Origin: Candidatus Odyssella sp.
Lineage (GTDB): Bacteria; Pseudomonadota; Alphaproteobacteria; Paracaedibacterales; CAITNM01
Direction: 5' to 3'
NCBI GenBank assembly: GCA_020726185.1
Contig: DYTB01000001.1
Coordinates: forward strand, 66,526-130,525
DNA length: 64,000 nt
A program made the translations under genes and the position numbers. How positions within the stretch are numbered: the stretch's first letter is position 1; the number at the start of each line of letters is the position of its first letter. Shown piece after piece: positions 18,456-42,984 of this stretch. Below the pieces are notes generated by a model. The model was not told the DNA's origin. It searched no databases and was given only the letters and a program-made list of their open reading frames with translations.

Positions 18456-18532
18456 GTTCCCGTAGCTCAGCAGGATAGAGCGCAAGATTCCTAATCTTGA
18501 GGCCATGAGTTCGAATCTCGTCGGGAACGCCA
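18456..18532 (+). tRNA. tRNA-Arg, anticodon CCT, with CCA encoded
   Basis: A manual cloverleaf fold works. The acceptor is GTTCCCG/CGGGAAC, the D arm is GCTC/GAGC, and the anticodon stem is CAAGA/TCTTG with loop TTCCTAA. The T arm is ATGAG-TTCGAAT-CTCGT, the discriminator is G and CCA follows, for 77 nt in total. Confidence 0.9.
18487..18532 (+). repeat. attL core (46-bp direct repeat, the tRNA-Arg 3-prime portion)
   Basis: It is identical to 32485-32530. Confidence 0.85.
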
Positions 18533-21415: not shown

Positions 21416-24400
21416 ATGTTTAAACGTTTAAGATCGCAAATTTTAAGAATTCTACCCACGATAATCATTTTAAGCTCCTTCGTTCATGGTGCTTATGATC
21501 CGAACGATCCACGTCATCAGCTCGTGAATAAAATCAAAGAGCAATATGCGACTGAAATCACTGCTCGTCAGGCTTTATTAGGAACCCATTACAATGTGGT
21601 GGCATTGGTTGATATTGCGCGTGAATGGTTGGAATTAGAAAGATTTACTCCATCTGATCCAAATTGAGGCTTAGTCATTCGTTATGCTTTATCGGGATAT
21701 GGATATAGTAAAGGCGTTGATACAACATTAAGAACAAGTGATGCTGAAATTAGCTCCCTTAAAGTTGGGCATGCATTAAGCAGCGCTTACTTACGTGCTC
21801 AAGGAGGTGCAGATCTGGTTGAAATTTCAAAAATGCATGCAGTGATGGCAGTATCAGCAATGGCATCTTTGGTTGATGTGACAGCTTGCATTACAGATGC
21901 TGTTCCTGTCCCATCTTTGATGTTGTCAAGCATTGCAGACTACGCGAGTATTCTGAATCGTGTTGCAGCCTCTATTCCTGCGGAAGTTCATGCTTTTGCT
22001 GAAATAGCTGTGGATCGTCTGCGCGGTTTAAGCCACCTTAATAAATTCAATGCATGGTTTGCCCATGAACGGTTTTGGGCAGCAGGTGGTGTTATTGATC
22101 CGCATACCTATGAACAACAAAGAACATCTCGTGCCGGATTTGCAGGAACACCGATAGCATTTTTGAATGATTTATCTACAAAGCTAGATACAGCAATGCG
22201 GTCGATGGATGCTGTGCCAACTCCCCAAAGTGTTGAGGATTTAGTTAGACAGTCACAACAGATTCTATTGACTATTGCCGCTGGAACACCAGGTGAAGAT
22301 GGTATTCCTATTCGTCTTAATCCTGCTAATGCTGCGGATTGGCAAATTATTCGCAAAGCACTATTCTTGGCCTTAAGCGTGACCAGTGATCCAATTAATG
22401 GTGGTGATACGTTTTTGAGTACATTGTTTGATTGTGCAAAGTTTTATCTAGAAAAGACTGAATCCGATGCAATTAAGGGCTATTATTGGAAAGCACAAGC
22501 ATTAGCTAAGAACTTTTCAAGTATTTGGAAGGGCCTATTATCAGGTCAGGCAGATGCTGAGCTTAATGCAGGATTAACACAGGTTATTGCGATTGCAGAT
22601 CCTTTGGTTTATAACGCTGCATGGACCTCGGAGCGTGGATCTAGTTATCCCGCTTTAAAAAGTGCTTATGAACAAGCAAAGACAATGATTTCTATTGCAG
22701 GGGTTCGCGGTGAACTAGCAACAGCTTTGTCATTACACCCAAAATTAAATCATCTGCAGACTTTTAAAGCTCTTTACCCTGATCTAATGATCTGGACTGA
22801 ATATCACATTCCTAGCCAGCAAGCTATTGATCTTGTGGATACCATCAGAACAACGATTACTCATCCGGTAGGGTTTGAACCGGAACGCGTGCACTTAAAA
22901 TATGAAGCAGGAAAATGGTCTCTTAGGGGTATTAAGTCTGCAGCATTAGGCAATGCAGAACATATTTTGTGGCGACAAGGTGCTAGTGCAGAGGAAGAAT
23001 TCATTGGTGCTTTAGAAGATGGCCGAGGAACGCATTTGTTTAGTTTCAAGGTCAATGGAGCTTCTGCAGTCATTAAGGCAATTAGCAGTGGTTATATTGT
23101 GAATCTTGGCGGAAATAATGCAAGCATTGGGGTTGCTCATGGTGCTGAACTGGGAATTGTAGAATCATCTGCTTATCCTGTGCAACTAATTGATGACCCA
23201 AGTGATGATAAAGAAAACGCTGTTTTAACTATTAAAGGAGCTGCCTATTCAGGTGAGCGTGGGGTTTTAATGGCAAGGCGCGGCAGTGTGTGGAACAGTG
23301 CTTCTTCCACTAATTTGAGCTATACAATCGCCCCTGAAATAAAACAACACAATGGAAAGAATTATAACTTCTTTGCACAAAAAGGTCATGGCATTATGGC
23401 GCATAAAGACATTGTGCTTGAAGGACAAAAGATCAATGCGTCACGAGGCATTTTAAACGCAGGAAGCAGGAAAAAGCATACATTTTGAAATGGATCGGGT
23501 TGCTGGTAAGGGCCAATTTAAAACCCATGGCAGTCTGATTCAAGCAGGAGATGAAATTATTCTAACTGGACAAGATTGGGAAGGTAATACAGAGGGTGTA
23601 TTTGCTGGATCGGCTGGTAATGTGTGTGACGTGCAGATCCCAGCAGATCTTGTGCCCAACAGCCCTCAAGCGTTACTAGATTATGGTCGTGCTTTAAGAT
23701 ACAGCTTAGGTCGTATTGAGTTTTCTAGTGAAGAAGAGAGAACAACCTTAGCACGTGGGCCCCATGCATATGGATCATATCAAAGCTTTTCATCATCGGC
23801 CCCTCGATGGAAGCCTGTTTATATATTAGTTGAGGCTGCTTATAAAAATGATGGATATGGAAGCGGTGGTTACGGAGGTGGTTTCGGAGGATTTGGAAAC
23901 TATGGAGGTGGCGGTGGTTTTGGACACACTGTTGGAAGTAGTTCATGGGCTCCACCAAGTAGCTCATTCCGTCAAGCAACAGTTGCACGACAAGAAAAGT
24001 TTATTCAACAATGCAGAGGCGGCGGTAGCGCAGCAGGTATGCCACCAGCTCCAGGAAGCTTTGGTACTATGTTTCAACAAGGTGGCTCTATAGCAGGTGG
24101 AGGCCCCAGCTCTATAGCTGGCCTAGCAGCAACCATGATTCCAGCTGGTGTTACAGAACAGAGTGTTGTTTTTGGAGGAGACAGCCGTGGTGGAGACATG
24201 ACAGCATTTGCATCTCTTTCCTTGTGCTCACAGACAGACAGCTGGACTGCAAGGGCAAGCTATACTTCAGGTCTTAGCGGTAAAAGTGTAGGATTAGAAT
24301 CAGCCTATTCAGGATCTGGTGATCGTGCAAGTGTATTGCGCGATATTCACGCCTTAACAGCTGCGAGCATTATGCAGTTGACTGATCGTCGTACAGATAG

Positions 24401-24896
24401 ATTGTCTGTTGCACCGTTGGTTTTGGGTGGATTAGCGATAGGACGCGTTGCGATTCCTCATGTAGTGAGATGGTCAAGGACTATTGTAAACGCTTATTTA
24501 TTGGCGGAGCAGGTTAGAGAACAAGCAGAAGAAGCCGCGAAAAAAGTTGCCGATGAATCATCATCTGCTGCAACCGGTGGACCAAAGGGGCAATTGCCTG
24601 ATGGCGAAGATCCTGAGAAAAAAGAAACAAAGGTTGAGCAAGGAAAAAGTCAGGCACCAAAAGTAGGGACGCCAGATTCTATCTATGAGCAGATTGGTGA
24701 TGATGGTAGTGTAAACTCAAGAACATATTATGATGAAAACGGTAGGCAATTTTCTAGGCAGGATTATGGCCATACTCATGGTGGGCAAGAAGGCCCGCAC
24801 CAACATGAAAGAACGTTTGATGCCCAAGGTTTGCCACTAACTGGGAAAGTTGTGAAACCTCTGCCTTCTGGGTACCCTAACACATCAAGTTTGTGA
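21416..24896 (+). pseudogene. Large secreted polymorphic-toxin-like protein (~1160 codons) broken by an in-frame TGA and a +1 frameshift
   Basis: ORF 21416-21667 (signal peptide) and ORF 21833-23488 share a frame, and the frame is open from 21668, so TGA at 21665-21667 is the only interruption. ORF 23490-24896 is open from 23457 in the +1 frame, and the junction is at the A5 run 23471-23475. A Gly-rich tract (GYGSGGYGGGFGGFGNYGGGGGFG) is followed by a hydrophobic helix and a Lys/Glu linker. The last ~70 aa carry RTYYDENGRQFSRQDYGHTHGGQEGPHQHE. Confidence 0.6.
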
Positions 24897-24903
24897 GGTA
24901 AGT

Positions 24904-25440
24904 ATGAGTAGTTTTTTAGTTGGAATTATTGAACAGAATGTGAGCAGAACAACTGATGATGGAAAGCACTCTAGAGCATTTGATAGTTGCTTGTATAAGA
25001 TGCAAAAAATAGGCATTGATCAAGGATTATCAATTTTAATAGGGTGGAATATTCAGCCATATGCTTTTAATGAAATCAAAGATTTTATTCCTGCTCACCT
25101 ACAGGATAAGTCTAATACGGCTAGATTTATGATTGCTAGGTCTCCTGAGGATAACTTTAGCGACGAACTGTTTAATGATTGGGAATATGAATCCTGTCGA
25201 GAGGGGTATGTGCCGGGGCAAGCAAAAGTGTTTAAAGAATTAGAAAGCTTTATCGCTCAAGTTTTTGCTTTAAATGAAGTAAAAAGCTTATGGCTTAGAT
25301 ATCAGTGTATGTCTGCGTGTGAGGTTAACAAGCTTGCAACCATTGCTGACTTAGAAGGGCAAATTTATAAGCAATGTTCCAACGGTGAGCTGTTCGAAGT
25401 TTCAGACTTTGAAATTAGCTTGAAGAAAGAAGAAAAATAA
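24904..25440 (+). CDS. Putative cognate immunity protein (hypothetical, acidic, cytoplasmic)
   Basis: The 178-aa ORF starts 8 nt after the toxin stop. It has no signal peptide, and the immunity call rests on position only. Confidence 0.4.
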   Translation: MSSFLVGIIEQNVSRTTDDGKHSRAFDSCLYKMQKIGIDQGLSILIGWNIQPYAFNEIKDFIPAHLQDKSNTARFMIARSPEDNFSDELFNDWEYESCREGYVPGQAKVFKELESFIAQVFALNEVKSLWLRYQCMSACEVNKLATIADLEGQIYKQCSNGELFEVSDFEISLKKEEK

Positions 25441-29419: not shown

Positions 29420-30661
29420 ATGGCGAGATCCTTAAATTCTATATATGCACGCATTCAAAAAGATTGCGTTGATTTAGCCTTGCAAACAAGTCGTGTTATT
29501 CATTTGTCTGGCCCTCGACAATGTGGGAAAACAACGTTAGCAAAAATGATGGTGTCTGAAGATTGTGATTATCGTACGCTAGATGATGAAACGTATTTAC
29601 AATCAGCGCTTATCGACCCAAATGGATTTGTTAGGCATGACAAAAAACATTTAATCATCGACGAAATTCAACGAGCTCCTAATCTTTTAATGGCAATTAA
29701 AAAGGTTGTAGATACTGACAACAGGCCAGGACAGTATATTTTAACTGGGTCATCTAACATTCAAGCATTACCAGGCGTTAACGAATCATTGGCAGGACGC
29801 ATCCGCAAAATTCGCTTGAGGACGCTAACAGAAGGAGAGATATTAGGGAATGCTGCTTCATTTTTAGAGAGAGCTTTTTCTCAGGTTTTTAAGGAAAAAA
29901 GTGATTTAAATCGTGATTCAATATTAGAAATTGGCTTTCGAGGGGGATTTCCTGAAGCCGTACGATTACCACCTAAAATTCGCTCTATATGGCATAAGGA
30001 ATATATGAATGCTCTTTTAGAGAGGGATTTAAAGGATATTGTTAAAATCCAACGACATGAAACAATGCATGATCTCATAAGGGTTATGGCTGGTTGGTCA
30101 TCAAAATTTATGGATATATCAGCAATTGGATCAAACTTAGGGGTAACCCGACCTACTCTTGAAACATACATCAATGCTTTAGAAGCAATGTATATTGTTG
30201 AGCGTGTTCGTCCATGGTCGCGAACTGACTATGATCGCGTAAGTAAACACAGTAAGGTTTTTATGACAGACACGGGGCTTATGGCTTCATTGTTGGGGTG
30301 GGACATAGATCAAGTGCGATTTGATTCGGATCGCTGCGGTAAGTTAATGGAAACCCTAGTATTTCATAGTTTATCTACTTTAATTGATGCAGATTTTGGA
30401 AAATATACACTCTATCATTATCGAGATCGAGAAAAACGAGAGATTGATTTTCTCATTGAGCGTGAGGACGGATCGATGCTCGCAATAGAGGTTAAAGCGG
30501 GGTCATCGGTTGGAAAGAGCGATTTTAAACACTTGGACTGGTTTAAACAAAATATGGCTAAGGAAAAGCCATTTATTGGGATAGTTGTGTATACCGGAGA
30601 AGCAGCAGTTCCCTTTGGAGATGGTTTTTGGGCAGTGCCAATGAGTGATATGTGGAAGTAA
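29420..30661 (+). CDS. AAA-type ATPase with a DUF4143-like C-terminal domain
   Basis: Walker A is LSGPRQCGKTTLAK and Walker B is LIIDEIQRAPNL. The C-terminal region (EIDFLIE...AIEVKAG) is a restriction-endonuclease-like pattern typical of AAA_14/DUF4143 proteins. Confidence 0.7.
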   Translation: MARSLNSIYARIQKDCVDLALQTSRVIHLSGPRQCGKTTLAKMMVSEDCDYRTLDDETYLQSALIDPNGFVRHDKKHLIIDEIQRAPNLLMAIKKVVDTDNRPGQYILTGSSNIQALPGVNESLAGRIRKIRLRTLTEGEILGNAASFLERAFSQVFKEKSDLNRDSILEIGFRGGFPEAVRLPPKIRSIWHKEYMNALLERDLKDIVKIQRHETMHDLIRVMAGWSSKFMDISAIGSNLGVTRPTLETYINALEAMYIVERVRPWSRTDYDRVSKHSKVFMTDTGLMASLLGWDIDQVRFDSDRCGKLMETLVFHSLSTLIDADFGKYTLYHYRDREKREIDFLIEREDGSMLAIEVKAGSSVGKSDFKHLDWFKQNMAKEKPFIGIVVYTGEAAVPFGDGFWAVPMSDMWK

Positions 30662-30681
30662 TTAAATTTTGTGTGTGAGAA

Positions 30682-31029
30682 TGTCAGAATCATAAAATCA
30701 GATCAAGTATCATTTTGCATATTTTGCTAAATGCGCACTGATGCGGAGGACAAAGTGCGCTACACTTTTTACACCGCTATGTTGCCTACGGCGTTCATTC
30801 ATGACAGCAAGAATGAAAAGATAGCAATTTGTTGATATTTACTGGACGGCTGGACGGATAAGTGTCCAAGTGGACGGATAGGTGGACGGATAAAAAAGGC
30901 TGAAAGTCGCAGTTTTCCTATATGGTGGACGGCTGGACGGCAAAAATGACCTTTTTAAGGGGCCTCAGAAAAAATATTTGTATTGTACCTTTTCCATATT
31001 TCTTCAAGTTGCTGTTTTTCAAATCCCTT
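30682..31029 (-). repeat. Island repeat family, copy C (contiguous form, inverted relative to A and B)
   Basis: Its reverse complement aligns with 18682-18887 plus 19245-19370 (copy A) and with 19528-19800 (copy B). It carries a stub ORF (MTARMKR-stop) and GCGCAC-N16-GTGCGC at 30733-30760. Confidence 0.8.
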
Positions 31030-31119
31030 TGGTTGGATGTCACCGATTTCTATATTTTTCGTGAGGATTTAGTAAGGGGTAAGAAGTCTACTTAGCTGAC
31101 GTGGTGGCCCTACTTTTGT

Positions 31120-32316
31120 TTAAATGAGACCACGTTCTGCAGATTTCTTTAATCCTGCCGCTACTAACATGGCGCCAGTTGCCCTATCAACAGATTCTCG
31201 CACCGGGTCTAAATCTAATCGTGCATAAATTGCGGTTGTACTTGGTGATTTATGATTCAACGACTTGCCAACTATCACCAATGATGCGCCTGTTTTTGCT
31301 TGCCAGCTACCAAGAGTACGCCGTAGATCATGAATTCGTAGGTTGGCAATCCCAGCCCGCTCTAATACACGTTTCCAGGATTTTTTAGGTTCAACAAGGT
31401 GGCCAGTAACACCAGTCCCTGGAAATACCCATGTCGTGTTAGTGCCTTGTCGTGCTCGTAAAATCTCAACAACTTCATGAGTTAGGGTAACTGTTTGAGA
31501 GTCCCCGTTTTTAGTAATAGGTATACGCCATTCTCCACGCTCTAGATGTATCTGTGACCATTGCATTTCTTGGACATTAGAACGCCTGGCACCAGTCAGT
31601 AAGGAAATAAGAAAATAGTCTCTCAACGTATCGTTTTGTTCTTCTGCTAGTGATTTGAAAAATGCAGGTAATTCATCGGACTGTAAAAAACGATCACGAG
31701 TATTTTCATAGAATTTTTTAATGCCTTGAGCCGGGTTAGTGCCTTTAAACAATTTTTTCTCAGTAGCATACCCAAACAAGCTAGATGCTAGGGCGATAAT
31801 CCGATTAGCCGTAGTTGGGTATTCTTTGCCTATCTCAGTATGTAGCTTACCAAAATCATTGTCTTTAAATTGGGATAACTGCCGCTTACTCCATTTGGCT
31901 AGGTACAAGTTAAAATTATATCGGTAGGTGCTTTTTGTGCTCGCTGATAAATATGCACCCTTTCGGTTACGACGATGTTTAAGGAACTCTTCAAACAATT
32001 CTTCCAATGTTGTTTCTGTTTTTAGTGCGCGAGCGTCAGAGTTTGGATTGATACCATCAACAATAAGTGCATTTATACGTGCTGCCTCATTACGTGCCTG
32101 CTCAATAGACATATCGGGGTAACGTCCCATGGTTACACGTTCAGGGTTTCCATTTTTGATGCGTCGATAAACGCAAAATGTTTTAACACCAGTACTCGTG
32201 ATGCGTATCTGTAGGCCATTGGTCTTTTTATCGTGATAAGCTTGGCGTTGACCACTGGCGGGTAAAGGCAGAGCATCTAAAGTTGCTTTGGTAAAGTTGA
32301 TTTTATTCTCTGACAT
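31120..32316 (-). CDS. int: Tyrosine-type integrase, P4-like, with a DUF4102-type arm-binding N-terminus
   Basis: The N-terminus reads TKATLDALPLPASGQRQAYHDKKTNGLQIRITSTGVKTFCVYRR...GRYPDMSIEQAR. The catalytic region contains ARRSNV, HDLRRTLGS and AIYARL. Confidence 0.9.
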   Translation of the reverse strand: MSENKINFTKATLDALPLPASGQRQAYHDKKTNGLQIRITSTGVKTFCVYRRIKNGNPERVTMGRYPDMSIEQARNEAARINALIVDGINPNSDARALKTETTLEELFEEFLKHRRNRKGAYLSASTKSTYRYNFNLYLAKWSKRQLSQFKDNDFGKLHTEIGKEYPTTANRIIALASSLFGYATEKKLFKGTNPAQGIKKFYENTRDRFLQSDELPAFFKSLAEEQNDTLRDYFLISLLTGARRSNVQEMQWSQIHLERGEWRIPITKNGDSQTVTLTHEVVEILRARQGTNTTWVFPGTGVTGHLVEPKKSWKRVLERAGIANLRIHDLRRTLGSWQAKTGASLVIVGKSLNHKSPSTTAIYARLDLDPVRESVDRATGAMLVAAGLKKSAERGLI

Positions 32317-37878: not shown

Positions 37879-38353
37879 AGCCTTGCCAAAAAAGGGAAGC
37901 ATTGTTATTGGGCTTCTTGTTTTCGTGTTGGATCAGTTGTCAAAATTTTGGGTGCTAGAACATGTAGGTCCAGGAGAAAGCATGCATGTTTTTCCATGTT
38001 TGAATTTTCTGTTGGCTTATAATCCGGGGGTGACTTTTGGGTTGCTTCGCGCGTATTCCAATGTGCACTATATTTTGCTTGTGACGGGGGTTTGTGCTTT
38101 GGCATGCGTTGTTTGTAGATGGTGGTGGAAGGCAGAAAATGCTTTGCAGCGTTATGCAACCGCTATAATTCTGTTTGGGGCCTTAGGGAATTTGGTTGAT
38201 CGCTTGCGTTTTCGTGCAGTAGTTGATTTTCTTGATTTTCATATTTTTAGCTCGCATTGGTATACGTTTAACTTGGCTGATTCAGCTATTGTTTTAGGGG
38301 TTGGATTGCTGATGTTGGATAGTTTTTATAAGCCTAAAAATACCTTTATGTAG
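37850..38353 (+). CDS. lspA: Lipoprotein signal peptidase II
   Basis: It is polytopic with the LspA pattern (DQLSKFWV, NPGVTFG, GALGNLVDR, VVDFLDF, FNLAD). It follows ileS in the canonical ileS-lspA order. The start could be GTG 37850, ATG 37853 or ATG 37865. Confidence 0.88.
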   Translation: MMRLFMITFKALPKKGSIVIGLLVFVLDQLSKFWVLEHVGPGESMHVFPCLNFLLAYNPGVTFGLLRAYSNVHYILLVTGVCALACVVCRWWWKAENALQRYATAIILFGALGNLVDRLRFRAVVDFLDFHIFSSHWYTFNLADSAIVLGVGLLMLDSFYKPKNTFM

Positions 38354-39311
38354 GGTTTTTTGCAGGAAAAAAATTCATTTTATTAAGCTGTTCAATAACT
38401 TTATCCAACTCGTTTAAAACAAGTTGATTGTTAAGGTTTGCTTTTATTTCGAATGGTTGCGCATGTTTTCGGGCAAATAACTGTTGATAAAACCGTTTAA
38501 ATTTTAGTTTTGTTATGCCTGTTGGATAAATTAGTACAGGCTTGCCCATAACGCACGCTTCACTGGCCATGCTAATAGAATCTTCGCACACAATAATTGC
38601 ATCAACACCTTTTAATAAATTGGGATAAGGATTTTTGGTTTTTTGATTCCATATCCAGTAAGACACTCCATCAAGATTACGCTCAAAAATTTTCAACCAC
38701 TTTAAGGGTGTGCGACGTGATGGAGTAATAATAAGACTTGCTCCAATTAAAGCTGAATTCAAATTTATGAAAGTTCTTAAATCATTCGCCATTTTTATAG
38801 CGAGCTCATCTTTATAAGTGCCATGAACACTATTACCGCCTAGCAATACACCAACTCTAGGGTTAGTGTATTTTTCTAGAGTGCGTGGAAAAACAAGAAT
38901 TTCTGGCTGAATAGCATGTATAGCTCCTTGAGTGCAAATAACGTTTTTACCGTCTACCTGATCATGAACAGGAGCTATAACCACATCAAAATAATTTGGA
39001 GACACACCTGGGTTCATTAATACAACAGTTTTTGTACCGTGCTTTAAAGCAAGTGCTACAAGTACCGCTTGACGACCTGCTGCGATAATAATATCAGGTA
39101 GGGGGTCAGTTATACTTTTGACTGCCATGTTTTTCAAAAAAACAGGTAGCTTTGCAAATATTTTAGATGGCATCCAGCGACACCAAGAGGGCAGATGAAT
39201 TGGTTTTTTCTCATATTTTCCAATCCATTTTGATGCTAATGCTTCAGCTTGCTTCCAAGTTCCTACTTTTAAAGCATCTACGCATACCCAGCAAATATAT
39301 TTTTTCTTCAT
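38346..39311 (-). CDS. ELM1/DUF1022-family protein (glycosyltransferase-like)
   Basis: The 321-aa ORF fits my recollection of the alphaproteobacterial ELM1-like family (IIIAAGRQAV, VLLGGNS, ITPSRRTP, DSISM.SEA). Confidence 0.55.
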   Translation of the reverse strand: MKKKYICWVCVDALKVGTWKQAEALASKWIGKYEKKPIHLPSWCRWMPSKIFAKLPVFLKNMAVKSITDPLPDIIIAAGRQAVLVALALKHGTKTVVLMNPGVSPNYFDVVIAPVHDQVDGKNVICTQGAIHAIQPEILVFPRTLEKYTNPRVGVLLGGNSVHGTYKDELAIKMANDLRTFINLNSALIGASLIITPSRRTPLKWLKIFERNLDGVSYWIWNQKTKNPYPNLLKGVDAIIVCEDSISMASEACVMGKPVLIYPTGITKLKFKRFYQQLFARKHAQPFEIKANLNNQLVLNELDKVIEQLNKMNFFPAKNPT

Positions 39312-39513
39312 TTGGATTTATTTTTTTTTATTAAAAAAGTCCCTACAATTCAACCATAAAGCCAAATATAGCCTTCGTCCAGTATAAGAAAAAAATGATC
39401 CATTGAAAAGTAAATGCAAAATTTAACGAAATTTTAATAAAGCTTCGATTTAATGAGTATAAGGATCATTGGGTGGATTGCACCCATAGCAATATGTAAA
39501 TGAGGAAGAAATT

Positions 39514-41442
39514 ATGGTCGAAAGTATTCAGCATAAGCTCGACCGGGTGCGCCCACCGCGCGTCCAAATTACCTATGATGTAGAAATAGGTGATGCTATC
39601 GAAATGAAAGAGCTGCCCTTTGTGGTTGGTATTCTTGCAGATTTATCTGGTCATCTGTCTGACCCTCTCCCCCCATTAAAAGAGAGAAAATTTGTAGAAA
39701 TTGATCGTGACAATTTTCCAGAAGTTCTGGAATCTATCAAGCCACGCTTGGCAATTACTGTTCCCTACAAATTAGGTGCGGACAAAACTGAAACTTCTCT
39801 TGAGCTATTTTTCAGTTCCATAGAAGATTTTGAGCCATTAAACATTGTCAAAAGAGTTGATGATTTAAGTACGCTGTATGATTCACGCTGTCACTTAAAA
39901 GATTTAATGAATAAGCTTGATGGTAATGATGCACTTGCTGCAATGCTTTCTGATTTAATGGGAGATGCTGCAAAACAAAAAGCACTAGCAGATCAAATTG
40001 CTGCTGGTGCAGGTGCTGATCTCGATAAATTGTTGAGTGAAGGCAAAATGGTTCGTGATGAATCACAAAAACCAATAGTCTTAAATATTTTAAAAGAATT
40101 TTTAATGCAGGTTGCAACGCCTGACGAAAATGCACCAACACTACTTGGACATTATCTAGCGTATCATATGGACCGCATTGATAACCTTTTGACCAGTCAA
40201 CTTAATGAAATCATGCATCATCCAGATTTTCTAAAGTTAGAAGGATCTTGGAGAGGATTGTCTTACTTAGTGTACAAAGCTGAAACAGGTGAGCACTTAA
40301 AATTAAGGTTGATGAACCTTTCTCGTCAAGAACTGCAAAATGACCTAGATAAAGCAGTTGAATTTGACCAAAGCCAATTATTCAAAAAAGTTTATGAAGA
40401 AGAATACGGAACCTTTGGTGGACATCCATATTCTTGTTTGGTTGGTGATTTCGAATTTGGTAGATCTCCTATGGATATGGACTTACTTGAAAAAATTTCA
40501 GGTGTTGCCGCAGCTGCACATGCACCATTTATAAGCGCTGCACATCCTATGCTTTTTGACTTAGATAGCTTCGAGCACTTAGGCGTTCCAAGAGATTTAA
40601 GTAAGGTAATGGATAGCTTAGAGTTAGTAAAATGGCACAGTTTTAGGAGTGCTCCAGATTCTCGTTATGTGAGCCTAGTGTTGCCACGCGTTCTAATGCG
40701 CTTACCTTATGGTCCAGATACATCTCCTGTTGAAGGCTTGAATTTCAAAGAAGATGTAGGCATGGCTGACAGTAATCTTTTCTGTTGGGGTAATGCGGCA
40801 TTCGTTCTAGCTGAGCGCATGTGTAATGCGTTTAGCTTATATCGCTGGACAGCCGCTATCCGTGGCGTTGAAGGCGGTGGTATTGTTGAGGGATTGCCTC
40901 CTTACACATTCAAAACACCAGATGGAGACGTTGCTCTTAAATGTCCAACAGAAGTTAGCATTACTGATCGTCGTGAAAAAGAATTAAGCGACAACGGATT
41001 TATTTCTTTATGTCATTGCAAAGGAACTGACTACGCAGCATTCTTTGGTGGGCAAACATCACAAAAACCAAAGAAATATAATCTTGATGACGCTACAGCA
41101 AATGCAAACCTTTCAGCAAGGCTTCCATACATATTAGCCGCTTCACGATTTGCTCATTACATCAAAGTTATCATGCGTGATAAAGTCGGTAGCTTCATGA
41201 CAAAAGATAATGTTTCTCATTATCTAAATACATGGATAGCACAGTATGTGTTGTTAAACGACGGAGCACCTCAAGAAGTTAAGGCAAAGTATCCACTTCG
41301 TGAAGCAAGAATTGATGTATTTGAAGTTCCTGGACAACCTGGTTCATACACATCAGTTGCATATATCAGGCCACACTTTCAACTTGAAGATCTGGCAGTT
41401 TCTATTCGCCTGGTCGCAAAATTACCAGCACCACCCGCGTAA
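39514..41442 (+). CDS. tssBC: Type VI secretion sheath protein: TssB (VipA) and TssC (VipB) fused in one 642-aa polypeptide
   Basis: Residues 1 to ~165 match the TssB pattern (RPPRVQITYDVEIGDAIEMKELPFVVGILADLSGH...FVEIDRDNF...IEDFEPLNIV). The rest matches TssC (IMHHPDFLKLEGSWRGLSYLV, FDQSQLFKKVYEEEYGTFGGHPY, AAAAHAPFI, RYVSLVLPRVLMRLPYG, IRGVEGGG, ITDRREKELSDNGF, LSARLPYILAASRFAHYIK). There is no stop or frame change between the two parts. Confidence 0.85.
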   Translation: MVESIQHKLDRVRPPRVQITYDVEIGDAIEMKELPFVVGILADLSGHLSDPLPPLKERKFVEIDRDNFPEVLESIKPRLAITVPYKLGADKTETSLELFFSSIEDFEPLNIVKRVDDLSTLYDSRCHLKDLMNKLDGNDALAAMLSDLMGDAAKQKALADQIAAGAGADLDKLLSEGKMVRDESQKPIVLNILKEFLMQVATPDENAPTLLGHYLAYHMDRIDNLLTSQLNEIMHHPDFLKLEGSWRGLSYLVYKAETGEHLKLRLMNLSRQELQNDLDKAVEFDQSQLFKKVYEEEYGTFGGHPYSCLVGDFEFGRSPMDMDLLEKISGVAAAAHAPFISAAHPMLFDLDSFEHLGVPRDLSKVMDSLELVKWHSFRSAPDSRYVSLVLPRVLMRLPYGPDTSPVEGLNFKEDVGMADSNLFCWGNAAFVLAERMCNAFSLYRWTAAIRGVEGGGIVEGLPPYTFKTPDGDVALKCPTEVSITDRREKELSDNGFISLCHCKGTDYAAFFGGQTSQKPKKYNLDDATANANLSARLPYILAASRFAHYIKVIMRDKVGSFMTKDNVSHYLNTWIAQYVLLNDGAPQEVKAKYPLREARIDVFEVPGQPGSYTSVAYIRPHFQLEDLAVSIRLVAKLPAPPA

Positions 41443-41453
41443 GGAGATAAAAT

Positions 41454-42023
41454 ATGTCGATATCAATTATGAATATAGATCAAAAGGCTACGATCGTAAG
41501 TAATGCTGAGGGACGCGATGAATCACAGGCTTCTTCTGCGGACTTATTTGCAAAAATTGTCTACAGTGGAAAGGCAATAACTAGTAGTAGTGTTACTGAT
41601 TACATAGACGCTGCTGTTATTCATGGTCTAAAGATGAACGTTTGGAGAAAAGAAAGCGGAGACGTTTCCAATTCAGCTACAAATTCATCTGCTACGCTTG
41701 GAATGGATGAAATAGAATTCACACTACCTTGTAGTGACGTTGATATTACAGCCATTGAAACTATTGCAAACGGACAAATGGTCGATATTATTTTCACAAA
41801 AACTGGAAATATTACAGGACACAGCGTTAAAATTGAAACATTTAATTTTGAAAAAGCGCAAATTGTCAGTACGTTTTTTTTCATTCAAACAGCTGTGACT
41901 CCTTCAATTACAATTCGTTTTAAAGCAAAAAAAATTGAAATCACACGATTTGATTACAAAGAGGGAAAACCAGCTGGACAAAAAGTTTACGTTGTTGATT
42001 TCGTTACAAATACTAGTAAATAA
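41454..42023 (+). CDS. hcp: Divergent Hcp-like T6SS tube protein with a ~30-aa N-terminal extension
   Basis: It sits between tssC and tssE. By eye it is collinear with my recollection of Hcp1 (LFAKIVYSGKAITSSS..., EIEFTLPCSDVDITAIETIANGQ..., IEITRFDYKEGKPAGQKVYVVDFVTN) but lacks the usual GES motif. Confidence 0.55.
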   Translation: MSISIMNIDQKATIVSNAEGRDESQASSADLFAKIVYSGKAITSSSVTDYIDAAVIHGLKMNVWRKESGDVSNSATNSSATLGMDEIEFTLPCSDVDITAIETIANGQMVDIIFTKTGNITGHSVKIETFNFEKAQIVSTFFFIQTAVTPSITIRFKAKKIEITRFDYKEGKPAGQKVYVVDFVTNTSK

Positions 42024-42100: not shown

Positions 42101-42631
42101 ATGGGCATCTCAACGAAGTCGCTTAAAAAAAATACAAGTACAAGCTCATTTCTAAATAAACCAGAACCAAAACCAAAAAAAGGTAGTAAAGCGCCTCTCT
42201 TTGAGAGATTGATTGATGACATTCCAGAAACACAGCAAGAACATCCTAAAAGGATAATTCTCAATCGTGCCCAAGTGTTAGAGTCTATAGTCAATGACGT
42301 TGCTCGTTTATTAAATACACACCTAAGCGCCACAGCAAAAATTTATAGTCGTTATCGTGACCAAGAATACGGCCTAGGTTTACCTTGGATGTATGGTGTT
42401 CCTGATTTTACATCAATGGACCCTGCTGACAAAACTCAGTGGGTGCGTATAGGTGATCTTTTTAAGGATGCCATCAGTTACTTTGAGCCTAGACTAAAAA
42501 AAGTAAGTGTTTCTCTTGACCATTTCGATGGACAGAGTCAGCGTTTATATATAAGCATTCGCGGACAAGTTGTAATGAAGGAATTTCAGCAACCCGTTGC
42601 TTTTGGTATAGAAATTAACAACCTCAGCTAG
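42101..42631 (+). CDS. tssE: Type VI secretion baseplate protein TssE (gp25-like)
   Basis: PLFERLIDD, SIVNDVARLLNT, GLPWMYGVPDF, ISYFEPRLKKVSV and LYISIRG follow the TssE/GPW_gp25 pattern. Confidence 0.8.
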   Translation: MGISTKSLKKNTSTSSFLNKPEPKPKKGSKAPLFERLIDDIPETQQEHPKRIILNRAQVLESIVNDVARLLNTHLSATAKIYSRYRDQEYGLGLPWMYGVPDFTSMDPADKTQWVRIGDLFKDAISYFEPRLKKVSVSLDHFDGQSQRLYISIRGQVVMKEFQQPVAFGIEINNLS

Positions 42632-42645
42632 CAATAAGGAAAAAT

Positions 42646-42984
42646 ATGACTATTGATAACATTCAAAAAAAAATAAAAAGTCTGCAACAAAAAATGGATG
42701 TATGGCCAACTGATAGTATCAAAGCTATGGATGATCGGAATGAAATTCTAGCCTTAACAGAATCGCATTTTCATGAAGTTGAGACTGATTTACAAAAATT
42801 GCTAGAGCAATGCAAAATGTTGCCAGTAAGTGAGCAAGGCTCTGTGACACCTTCTTTAAAAGAATTAAAGACTTTCGTACAAAACAAGTTTGTAAGCGCC
42901 GAAAAAGAGCTTATTGAAATTAAAAGCCAGATGAATCACGGACGGCATCATGTTAAAGCCATTCGTGCGTATACGAAAGCTTAG
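42646..42984 (+). CDS. Hypothetical coiled-coil protein in the T6SS locus
   Basis: The 112-aa ORF is helical and charged, has RBS AAGGAAAAA upstream, and shows no motif I recognise. Confidence 0.4.
   Translation: MTIDNIQKKIKSLQQKMDVWPTDSIKAMDDRNEILALTESHFHEVETDLQKLLEQCKMLPVSEQGSVTPSLKELKTFVQNKFVSAEKELIEIKSQMNHGRHHVKAIRAYTKA

What the first reader, a model, noticed from the sequence alone, without database searches (positions are those of the whole stretch)
39514..41442. T6SS contractile sheath encoded as a single fused TssB-TssC polypeptide
The sequence shows one uninterrupted 642-codon ORF. Its first ~165 residues carry the TssB/VipA hallmarks (RVQITYDVE..G...KELPFVVGILADLSG, IDRDNF, EDFEP). 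The remainder carries the TssC/VipB hallmarks through to the C-terminus. The junction lies near nt 40000-40040 (...QIAAGAGADLDKLLSEGK...). In the canonical T6SS classes I know, the sheath is made from two separate proteins. The VipA C-terminus and VipB N-terminus both contribute to the inter-subunit handshake domain, and the free N-terminal helix of VipB is what ClpV recognises to disassemble the contracted sheath. A covalent fusion removes that free N-terminus. This would imply a different recycling mechanism, a single-shot device, or a phage-sheath-like single-chain architecture. I do not know of a described natural fusion, so this needs a database check.
Basis: partly seen in the sequence, partly recalled or inferred. 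Interest (0 to 1): 0.75.

Follow-up and report, generated by a model that had tools for sequence, protein, structure and literature searches.

The report
Single-chain (fused TssB–TssC) T6SS sheath
One gene here really does encode both halves of the type VI secretion "spring" as a single protein. This fused form is common in public genomes, travels without the usual ClpV recycling ATPase, and I found no paper that describes it.

Summary
Window 39514..41442 (+) is an uninterrupted 642-codon ORF. Residues 6-162 match TssB/VipA and residues 169-638 match TssC/VipB, all above curated cut-offs. It is not an assembly error: the identical protein sits on at least 10 independently assembled contigs.

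It heads a small tail operon: tssBC, a divergent hcp, tssE and a 112-aa ORF, embedded among housekeeping genes of an alphaproteobacterial MAG.

The fusion is not rare. All 120 best 90%-identity clusters are fused, as are 119 of the best 149 50%-identity representatives. Carriers include Holosporales and other alphaproteobacterial MAGs and the gammaproteobacteria Bacterioplanes, Thalassomonas and Algicola.

It links two tails that are disordered in split relatives.

Fused and split forms alternate on the tree. In 60 of 69 split relatives tssB and tssC share one reading frame.

The recycling idea has circumstantial support. Within 10 kb, none of 21 fused contexts has clpV, against 42 of 69 split loci. 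Two complete clusters lack it. The ClpV-binding motif is lost in 133 of 134 fused proteins.

I found no published description. Verdict: real, a new variant of a known kind, moderate interest.

The parts
39502..39508 (+). Shine-Dalgarno-like box GAGGAAG, 5 nt upstream of the ATG
   Evidence: Read from the sequence. Function is inferred.
39514..41442 (+). tssBC: a single 642-codon ORF encoding the fused sheath protomer
   Evidence: The identical protein is on at least 10 independent contigs.
39514..39999 (+). TssB/VipA module (residues 1-162). It includes the N-terminal strand RVQITYDVE, which is the handshake arm.
   Evidence: PF05591 on 10-162 and TIGR03358 on 6-162. R16, V17, I19 and T20-G26 are invariant across 24 fused homologues.
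40000..40017 (+). Fusion joint AAGAGA (residues 163-168). It is the shortest form of a linker that reaches 40-300 low-complexity residues in relatives.
   Evidence: Alignment A1. In the AF2 model it is a turn at 165-167 between helices 152-164 and 168-175, with pLDDT 87-90. Linker spread.
40018..40035 (+). DLDKLL (residues 169-174). This is the position of the ClpV-binding helix motif (VipB LLDEIM; LLDxII in split relatives), here without the consensus.
   Evidence: Motif definition from PMC5924787.
40018..41439 (+). TssC/VipB module (residues 169-642), with the C-terminal gp25-like domain and the C-terminal handshake strand
   Evidence: TIGR03355 on 169-638, PF05943 and PF18945. 668 bits to Azotobacter vinelandii TssC, PDB 9n4v.
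41454..42023 (+). Divergent hcp/tssD (inner tube), 189 aa, 11 nt after tssBC
   Evidence: No Pfam or NCBIfam hit and pairwise BLAST is negative. A profile of the ORFs in this conserved position matches an Hcp profile with hhalign probability 96.4%, E = 1.2e-9, over 141 columns.
42101..42631 (+). tssE (gp25-like baseplate and sheath initiator)
   Evidence: PF04965 at 1.5e-12. TIGR03357 at 79.6 bits, cut-off 53.2.
42646..42984 (+). 112-aa ORF of unknown function, last gene of the mini-operon
   Evidence: Kept in the same position on the same-species contigs L002-L005. No family hit. Membership in the system is inferred from position only.

Best explanation
This is a genuine, native gene for a single-chain contractile sheath protomer of a type VI secretion system derived from the T6SS-i class. 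With the adjacent divergent Hcp tube gene and tssE it forms the tail mini-operon of an alphaproteobacterial MAG, probably related to Holosporales. The organism's other T6SS genes lie elsewhere in its genome.

In split relatives TssB ends in a disordered tail and TssC begins with one. Both emerge from the outer helical domain 3. Here the two tails are joined by a six-residue Gly/Ala turn. The TssB N-terminal strand and the TssC C-terminal strand, which weave subunits together, remain free. Assembly and contraction should therefore proceed as in two-chain sheaths, with 1:1 stoichiometry enforced by the covalent link.

Shown: the fusion is real, conserved and widespread. It is derived, because it is nested among split T6SS-i sheaths. 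It interconverts with the split state.

Inferred: these fused-sheath systems work without ClpV. After firing, the sheath would be taken apart by another factor, such as housekeeping ClpB as in Francisella, or not recycled at all. Whether the fusion caused the loss of ClpV, followed it, or merely coincides with it is not resolved.
For: Identity and integrity.

Selection on both halves: 24 fused homologues share 64% mean column identity, with invariant residues throughout the TssB and TssC parts.

T6SS context: the Hcp-like ORF and tssE. GC content equals that of the flanks. The same tssBC-hcp(-tssE) unit occurs in L006-L008, L089 and L093. It matches the scattered [tssB-tssC-hcp] layout reported for Holosporales (PMC8163844).

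Derived from the split T6SS-i form: the best solved relatives are all two-chain sheaths. These are A. vinelandii 9n4v (668 bits), P. aeruginosa 5n8n (492), V. cholerae (350) and Francisella (217).

Joint in domain 3: helices 152-164 and 168-175 have pLDDT 87-90. Domain assignment follows PMC5807055. Split relatives have disordered tails at exactly this point.

Abundance: 120 of the 120 best 90%-identity clusters are fused. So are 119 of the 149 best 50%-identity representatives and 11 of 80 species genomes, checked on DNA.

Lability: there are fused/split sister pairs with 100% bootstrap, one of them checked on DNA (P0015 fused, L049 split). In 60 of 69 split loci tssB and tssC are in frame, and in 45 only one stop codon separates them.

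ClpV: TssH-like ORFs lie within 10 kb in 42 of 69 split loci, against none of 15 fused loci and none of 6 further fused contexts including the whole window. Five of five sampled ORFs are TIGR03345 TssH. The complete clusters of Bacterioplanes sanyensis and Thalassomonas actiniarum hold tssA, BC, D, E, F, G, K, L and M, a candidate tssJ, and in Bacterioplanes vgrG, but no clpV. Their closest split relatives have tssG followed directly by clpV.

Motif: the pattern hh[DE]xhh is present in 1 of 134 fused proteins and in 13 of 13 correctly anchored split proteins that have ClpV nearby.
Against: No whole genome could be scanned, so clpV could be encoded away from the sheath gene. In the alphaproteobacterial carriers T6SS genes are scattered anyway.

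The link between ClpV absence and fusion is confounded by shared ancestry, and the tree backbone is weak (bootstrap below 50 for deep nodes).

The helix after the joint is still conserved and amphipathic, so some Hsp100 could still bind it. AAA+ unfoldases can engage internal segments.

The other core T6SS genes of this particular organism are not in the window, so a complete apparatus is inferred from relatives and the literature.

The AF2 model is only partly confident (mean pLDDT 64.7).

There are no expression or functional data.
Confidence: 0.7

Rival explanations
1. The fusion is functionally neutral. The two tails happen to be adjacent and disordered, so loss of one stop codon is tolerated. 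Recycling is unchanged, with ClpV encoded elsewhere, or ClpV loss is an unrelated lineage trait of reduced genomes.
For: Fused and split states alternate among close relatives. Split relatives need only a single stop-codon change to fuse. Linker length is unconstrained, from 6 to more than 300 residues. Split genes nested in the fused clade (L031, L049, L076/77, L085, L088) also show no nearby clpV.
Against: Intact free-living gammaproteobacterial clusters lack clpV exactly where split relatives have it. The ClpV-binding consensus is lost in 133 of 134 fused proteins.
Confidence: 0.25
2. The fusion is a sequencing, assembly or gene-calling artefact: a missed stop or frameshift, or a TGA-as-sense gene call across an in-frame tssB stop.
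For: Most split relatives are in frame with only one stop codon between the genes. A wrong genetic code or a single base error could therefore fake a fusion in some database entries.
Against: The window ORF is stop-free under table 11. The identical protein occurs on at least 10 independent assemblies. Sixteen other fused loci were verified stop-free on DNA. The joint has lost the tail sequences rather than reading through them.
Confidence: 0.01
3. The fused form is a relic of the ancestral single-chain phage sheath, and the two-gene state of T6SS is derived from it.
For: The TssB-then-TssC order is colinear with phage gp18 (PMC5924787). The in-frame arrangement in split relatives could be a scar of an older fused gene.
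Against: The fused proteins are 50-70% identical to split T6SS-i sheaths from Azotobacter and Pseudomonas. They are far closer to those than those are to the V. cholerae, Myxococcus or Francisella sheaths, which are all split. The fusion is therefore nested well inside T6SS-i.
Confidence: 0.04
4. The protein does not serve a T6SS and is a sheath-like module of another system.
For: Some distant fused homologues sit without other T6SS genes. L094 is an orphan. L092 lies next to TIR and MoxR-like genes and carries a conserved N-terminal domain.
Against: The window gene has no N-terminal extension. It is followed directly by hcp-like and tssE genes. Its clade's gene layout matches T6SS loci.
Confidence: 0.03

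Closest known systems
Canonical T6SS-i two-chain sheath TssB/TssC (A. vinelandii 9n4v; P. aeruginosa TssB1C1 5n8n; V. cholerae VipA/VipB 3j9g)
   Same: Both protein families are present at full length. About 60-70% identity to A. vinelandii TssC. The handshake strands are conserved. It sits next to hcp and tssE.
   Different: One polypeptide instead of two. The terminal tails are deleted or merged. The LLDxII ClpV motif is replaced by DLDKLL. No clpV was found in any related cluster examined.
Francisella T6SS-ii (IglA/IglB sheath, disassembled by ClpB)
   Same: A T6SS without a dedicated ClpV and without the ClpV-binding consensus, in an intracellular bacterium (PMC5924787).
   Different: IglA and IglB are separate proteins and only distantly related (217 and 30 bits). 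Use of ClpB here is a hypothesis, not a result.
Single-chain sheaths of myophages, R-pyocins, eCIS and Amoebophilus T6SS-iv
   Same: One chain per protomer, colinear with TssB followed by TssC. No ClpV and no recycling (PMC5924787 and PMC10433429).
   Different: The sequence families differ. The window protein keeps the T6SS-specific domain 3 and matches only the TssB and TssC models. Its relatives have TssJLM-type membrane-complex genes.
Holosporales 'non-standard' T6SS as described in the literature
   Same: Scattered loci including [tssB-tssC-hcp]. tssH is never listed. The system is conserved even in the smallest genomes (PMC8163844, bioRxiv 10.1101/719211 and PMC11909080).
   Different: Those papers treat tssB and tssC as two genes, and some report the Hcp tube as missing. 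Here many members have a fused tssBC and a divergent but detectable Hcp. UBA6184 is genuinely split (L085).

Membership tests
T6SS contractile sheath (TssB + TssC families) | Matches the TssB/VipA family model above the curated threshold | tested here: met
   TIGR03358 at 159.7 bits (cut-off 97.25), residues 6-162. PF05591 at 3e-48.
T6SS contractile sheath (TssB + TssC families) | Matches the TssC/VipB family models above threshold, including the C-terminal gp25-like domain | tested here: met
   TIGR03355 at 649.5 bits (cut-off 271.5). PF05943 and PF18945. 1.5e-199 to PDB 9n4v chain A.
T6SS contractile sheath (TssB + TssC families) | Encoded next to tube (Hcp) and baseplate (TssE) genes | tested here: met
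   tssE matches TIGR03357 above cut-off. The 189-aa ORF is Hcp-like by profile-profile comparison, 96.4% probability.
T6SS contractile sheath (TssB + TssC families) | The remaining core genes (tssA, F, G, K, L, M and vgrG) are present in the same genome | not testable with these tools
   None are in the 64-kb window. They are present in relatives' clusters and reported for Holosporales.
T6SS contractile sheath (TssB + TssC families) | Polymerises around Hcp and contracts | not testable with these tools
   Needs imaging or cryo-EM.
Canonical T6SS-i as usually defined | The sheath is a heterodimer of two separately encoded proteins | tested here: not met
   A single ORF with no internal stop.
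Canonical T6SS-i as usually defined | A dedicated ClpV/TssH ATPase is encoded with the system | tested here: inconclusive
   Absent from the window and from 20 further fused contexts. Absent from two complete clusters. Whole genomes were not searchable.
Canonical T6SS-i as usually defined | ClpV-binding consensus helix at the TssC N-terminus (LLDEIM / LLDxII) | tested here: not met
   The window has DLDKLL. 1 of 134 fused proteins against 13 of 13 anchored split-with-ClpV proteins fit hh[DE]xhh.
Single-chain phage / eCIS / T6SS-iv sheath | Belongs to the phage-type sheath sequence families and lacks the T6SS domain 3 | tested here: not met
   Only TssB and TssC models hit. Domain-3 helices are predicted with high confidence. 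The resemblance is architectural only.

The most novel reading that the evidence does not exclude
Fused TssBC marks T6SS lineages that have abandoned ClpV. Tying the TssC N-terminal helix to TssB makes ClpV threading impossible or unnecessary, so these machines use ClpB or fire once. The same-frame, single-stop layout of tssB-tssC in split relatives would reflect repeated switching between the one-chain and two-chain states, possibly with some stop-codon read-through product. If so, chain topology would be an evolvable control on sheath recycling.
Probability: 0.3. Interest if true: 0.65.

Novelty: new variant of a known kind. Interest (0 to 1): 0.5.

Why it matters
T6SS reviews state that the sheath is a TssB/TssC heterodimer, and that ClpV grips the TssC N-terminal helix to recycle it. 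Here there are more than a hundred sequence clusters in which the two chains are covalently joined at exactly that helix. clpV is missing from the intact clusters examined, and the binding motif is gone.

This natural experiment bears on three questions. Why is the T6SS sheath split at all? Does ClpV need a free TssC end? How do ClpV-less systems, which include the T6SS conserved in nearly all Holosporales symbionts of protists, reset or discard their sheaths?

There are practical consequences too. Annotation pipelines call these proteins only 'large subunit', so surveys can score TssB as missing. The same applies to the divergent Hcp, which has been reported as absent. Thalassomonas and Bacterioplanes are named, sequenced strains, which should make the question testable if they can be grown and manipulated.

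Tried and rejected
1. Plasmid collection (tblastn): 585 records contain sheath genes, and every listed hit came as two pieces with separate tssB and tssC. There were no fused examples, and no plasmid resembling the Sneabacter one was found.

2. Pairwise BLAST of the 189-aa ORF against Bacterioplanes Hcp was negative. Only profile-profile comparison worked.

3. The first NJ tree suggested one origin of the fusion with five reversions. With 149 more representatives and bootstrapping that picture failed. Fused sequences are not one clade, deep nodes are unsupported, and the parsimony count rose to at least 22. I therefore claim only lability, not a number of events.

4. The count of 119 fused among 149 representatives is biased, because a fused query scores fused hits higher. 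I use it only as a lower bound on the number of fused clusters, not as a frequency.

5. The first motif comparison, by BLAST extension, reached the motif in only 90 of 341 sequences. The anchored version mis-anchors the Burkholderia-type sequences (HARAKD...). These were excluded rather than counted as non-matching.

6. The promoter and terminator scan was uninformative: 9 promoter-like sites against 11.6 expected, and no terminators.

7. PADLOC and NCBIfam gave no family for the N-terminally extended sheath proteins or their neighbours beyond weak TIR and MoxR-like hits.

8. Five literature searches returned only engineered fluorescent-protein fusions. The library lacks most subscription journals, so 'undescribed' is provisional.
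Full report
OBSERVATION

The window holds one stop-free ORF at 39514..41442 on the + strand. It is 642 codons long, starts with ATG, and has a GAGGAAG box 5 nt upstream.

- Pfam places T6SS_VipA on residues 10-162, VipB on 220-517 and VipB_2 on 527-637.
- The NCBIfam equivalogs for the small subunit (TIGR03358, residues 6-162) and the large subunit (TIGR03355, residues 169-638) both score far above their cut-offs.

An error is excluded. The identical protein is encoded on at least 10 independently assembled contigs, each with the same neighbours. The sources are the NCBI MAG GCA_037138055.1, named 'Alphaproteobacteria bacterium' (protein MEI7493921.1), together with ENA, Logan and JGI assemblies.

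SURROUNDINGS

- Eleven bases downstream lies a 189-aa ORF with no family hit and no pairwise similarity to Hcp. A profile built from the ORFs that occupy this position in 16 related loci matches an Hcp profile, with hhalign probability 96.4% and E = 1.2e-9 over 141 columns. It is a divergent tube protein.
- Next comes tssE (PF04965; TIGR03357 at 79.6 bits against a cut-off of 53.2).
- A 112-aa ORF of unknown function follows.
- Everything else in the 64 kb is housekeeping, transport or unknown: IleRS, LspA, PheST, AcrB, RNase J, NADH dehydrogenase and so on. There is no other T6SS gene and no Clp-type ATPase.
- The GC content of the operon equals that of its flanks.

The same small unit, tssBC plus an hcp-like gene and sometimes tssE, set among housekeeping genes, recurs in Holosporaceae and other alphaproteobacterial MAGs and in a 558-kb symbiont genome. 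In that genome tssG-tssF lies a few kb away. [quoted passage not shown]

HOW COMMON THE FUSION IS

- The 120 best clusters at 90% identity all carry the three domains in one protein of 640-762 aa.
- In a search of 1.84 billion 50%-identity representatives, 119 of the best 149 new hits are fused. The ranking favours fused proteins, so this is a lower bound on the number of fused clusters, not a frequency.
- In one genome per species, 11 of the 80 best loci are fused, checked on the DNA. They are Holosporales and other alphaproteobacterial MAGs, a Thiotrichales MAG, two 'Caedibacter sp.' MAGs, a Thalassomonas species and an Algicola species.
- Bacterioplanes sanyensis and Thalassomonas actiniarum, both with complete genomes, also carry the fusion.
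- PGAP names these proteins only 'contractile sheath large subunit'.

WHAT THE JOINT IS

In close split relatives, TssB ends in a disordered acidic or glycine-rich tail. TssC begins with 15-30 disordered residues, followed by a conserved helix LLDxII..G(R/K)MARD. In the window protein both tails are reduced to AAGAGA. In Holosporaceae the linker has instead grown to 40-120 Pro/Ala/Gly/Thr-rich residues, and in some proteins to about 300.

AlphaFold2 on a 24-sequence alignment gives only a mean pLDDT of 64.7. Residues 40-290 score 80-92, however. The joint is a three-residue turn between helix 152-164 (TssB) and helix 168-175 (TssC).

According to the P. aeruginosa sheath structure paper, the handshake is formed by the TssB N-terminal strand and the TssC C-terminal strand. 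The TssB C-terminal helix and the TssC N-terminal helices form the outer domain 3, which ClpV targets (PMC5807055). Both handshake arms stay free, and they are invariant in the alignment. The TssB-then-TssC order is colinear with single-chain phage sheaths (PMC5924787).

ORIGIN

The nearest solved structures are all two-chain sheaths: A. vinelandii 9n4v (668 bits), P. aeruginosa 5n8n (492), M. xanthus (379), V. cholerae (350) and Francisella (217). The fused proteins are nested inside T6SS-i, so the fusion is derived and not a phage relic.

A first NJ tree suggested a single origin. A broader bootstrapped tree of 261 sequences did not support this.
- Deep nodes are unsupported and fused sequences fall in several groups.
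- There are fused/split sister pairs with 100% bootstrap. One pair, P0015 (fused) and L049 (split), has its split state confirmed on DNA by separate reading frames.
- Two independent MAGs, L076 and L077, share a split gene pair that is sister to the window's own clade.

The state is evolutionarily labile. A likely reason is that tssB and tssC lie in the same reading frame in 60 of 69 split loci. In 45 of them only the tssB stop codon separates the two stop-free stretches, although the spacers vary from 0 to more than 20 nt, always in multiples of three. The bias survives dereplication at 80% identity: 21 of 30 clusters, p = 4e-5. One substitution can therefore fuse the genes, and one nonsense mutation in a linker can split them.

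RECYCLING

- A ClpV-like ORF lies within 10 kb in 42 of 69 split loci, usually as tssB-tssC-hcp-tssE-tssF-tssG-clpV. All five ORFs sampled are TIGR03345 TssH.
- None is present in 15 fused loci. None is present in five further fused contexts or anywhere in the window (Pfam lists).
- By extending the Bacterioplanes and Thalassomonas loci through tssM I obtained two whole clusters. Their order is a sigma-54 activator, an ORF of about 80 aa, tssBC, hcp, tssE, tssF, tssG, an ORF of about 170 aa (possibly tssJ), tssK, tssL, tssM and tssA, followed in Bacterioplanes by vgrG. There is no clpV.
- The ClpV-binding consensus is LLDEIM in VipB (PMC5924787) and LLDxII in this subtype. It fits hh[DE]xhh in 13 of 13 correctly anchored split proteins with ClpV nearby, but in only 1 of 134 fused proteins. 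The window has DLDKLL and most fused proteins have ILKEMF.
- Papers on the Holosporales T6SS never list tssH.

Together this supports a ClpV-independent system. Three caveats apply. Whole genomes could not be searched. The association is confounded by common descent. The split genes nested in the fused clade also lack a nearby clpV.

Francisella shows that ClpB can substitute for ClpV, and V. cholerae lacking clpV still fires occasionally (PMC5924787 and PMC10433429). Either ClpB-driven disassembly or single use is therefore plausible here. This step is inference.

KNOWN OR NEW

Five full-text searches found only engineered fluorescent fusions. A 2018 review states that canonical T6SS sheaths are heterodimers, whereas phage and eCIS sheaths are single proteins. 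A 2023 review and a 2025 Holosporales review do not mention a fusion. The library misses most subscription journals, so 'undescribed' is provisional. Domain-architecture databases surely list these proteins.

I class the finding as a new variant of a known kind. It is real and widespread, with a plausible functional correlate, but it is not a new kind of machine. Interest 0.5.

Noticed in passing
L092:1248-7178 (ENA ERZ25039493 contig_43114); proteins P0225, P0250, P0196, P0240 and others: 35 of 119 fused TssBC representatives carry N-terminal extensions of more than 100 aa. Twenty of them share one homologous domain of about 300 aa, with the motif RIEPQLLRxxRLxLxPxxDAGxEAELWFS. P0196 also has a weak TIR_2 hit. 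P0225 sits after a TIR protein, a MoxR-like AAA ATPase and a 323-aa ORF, with no other T6SS gene within 10 kb. This may be a sheath protein recruited into a conflict-system-like locus. PADLOC and NCBIfam recognise no system.
   Followed up: partly
Split loci among L012-L088 (junction of tssB and tssC): In 60 of 69 split relatives tssB and tssC are in the same reading frame. In 45 only the tssB stop codon interrupts the frame, with spacers of 0 to 21 nt or more that are multiples of three. The bias persists after dereplication (21 of 30 clusters at 80% identity, p = 4e-5). It could be a scar of fused ancestry, or it could allow read-through fusion products.
   Followed up: partly
window 41454-42023 and the equivalent ORFs in L006-L010, L013, L016, L027, L029, L048, L089, L093: The conserved 180-210-aa ORF after tssBC escapes the Pfam and NCBIfam Hcp models but is Hcp-like by profile-profile comparison. 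Published statements that the Holosporales T6SS lacks the inner tube (bioRxiv 10.1101/719211; PMC11909080) are probably a detection failure.
   Followed up: yes
P0044, P0038, P0075, P0189 and similar; alignment A1 columns 176-300: Linkers between the TssB and TssC modules range from 6 residues to about 300. They are low-complexity, rich in Pro, Ala, Gly and Thr, and are preceded in Holosporaceae by a conserved LKANKQT(V/I)TADFAT segment. On an assembled sheath they would form a dense outer brush. Their function is unknown.
   Followed up: no
L094:7668-9620 (ENA ERZ25072999): A fused TssBC of 650 aa, 42% identical to the window protein, sits alone among metabolic genes with no Hcp, TssE or other T6SS gene on a 17.7-kb contig.
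   Followed up: no
window 21833-25440: Three consecutive ORFs (551, 468 and 178 aa) have no family assignment apart from a sub-threshold Ntox24 toxin-domain hit at the C-terminus of the 468-aa protein. They are possible effector or immunity candidates for the T6SS.
   Followed up: no
window 29420-32316: An AAA_14/DUF4143 ATPase gene and a tyrosine integrase gene (31120-32316, minus strand) lie between housekeeping blocks. The integrase is also present in the NCBI MAG contig (L002). This is a possible integrated element. No tRNA gene is adjacent; the nearest are at 18456 and 48767.
   Followed up: no
window 38346-39311 (minus strand) and L089:13796-14812: An ELM1-like gene (PF06258) lies next to the tssBC-hcp-tssE unit both in the window and in a relative whose sheath protein is 62% identical. 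The linkage recurs, but it may be plain synteny.
   Followed up: no
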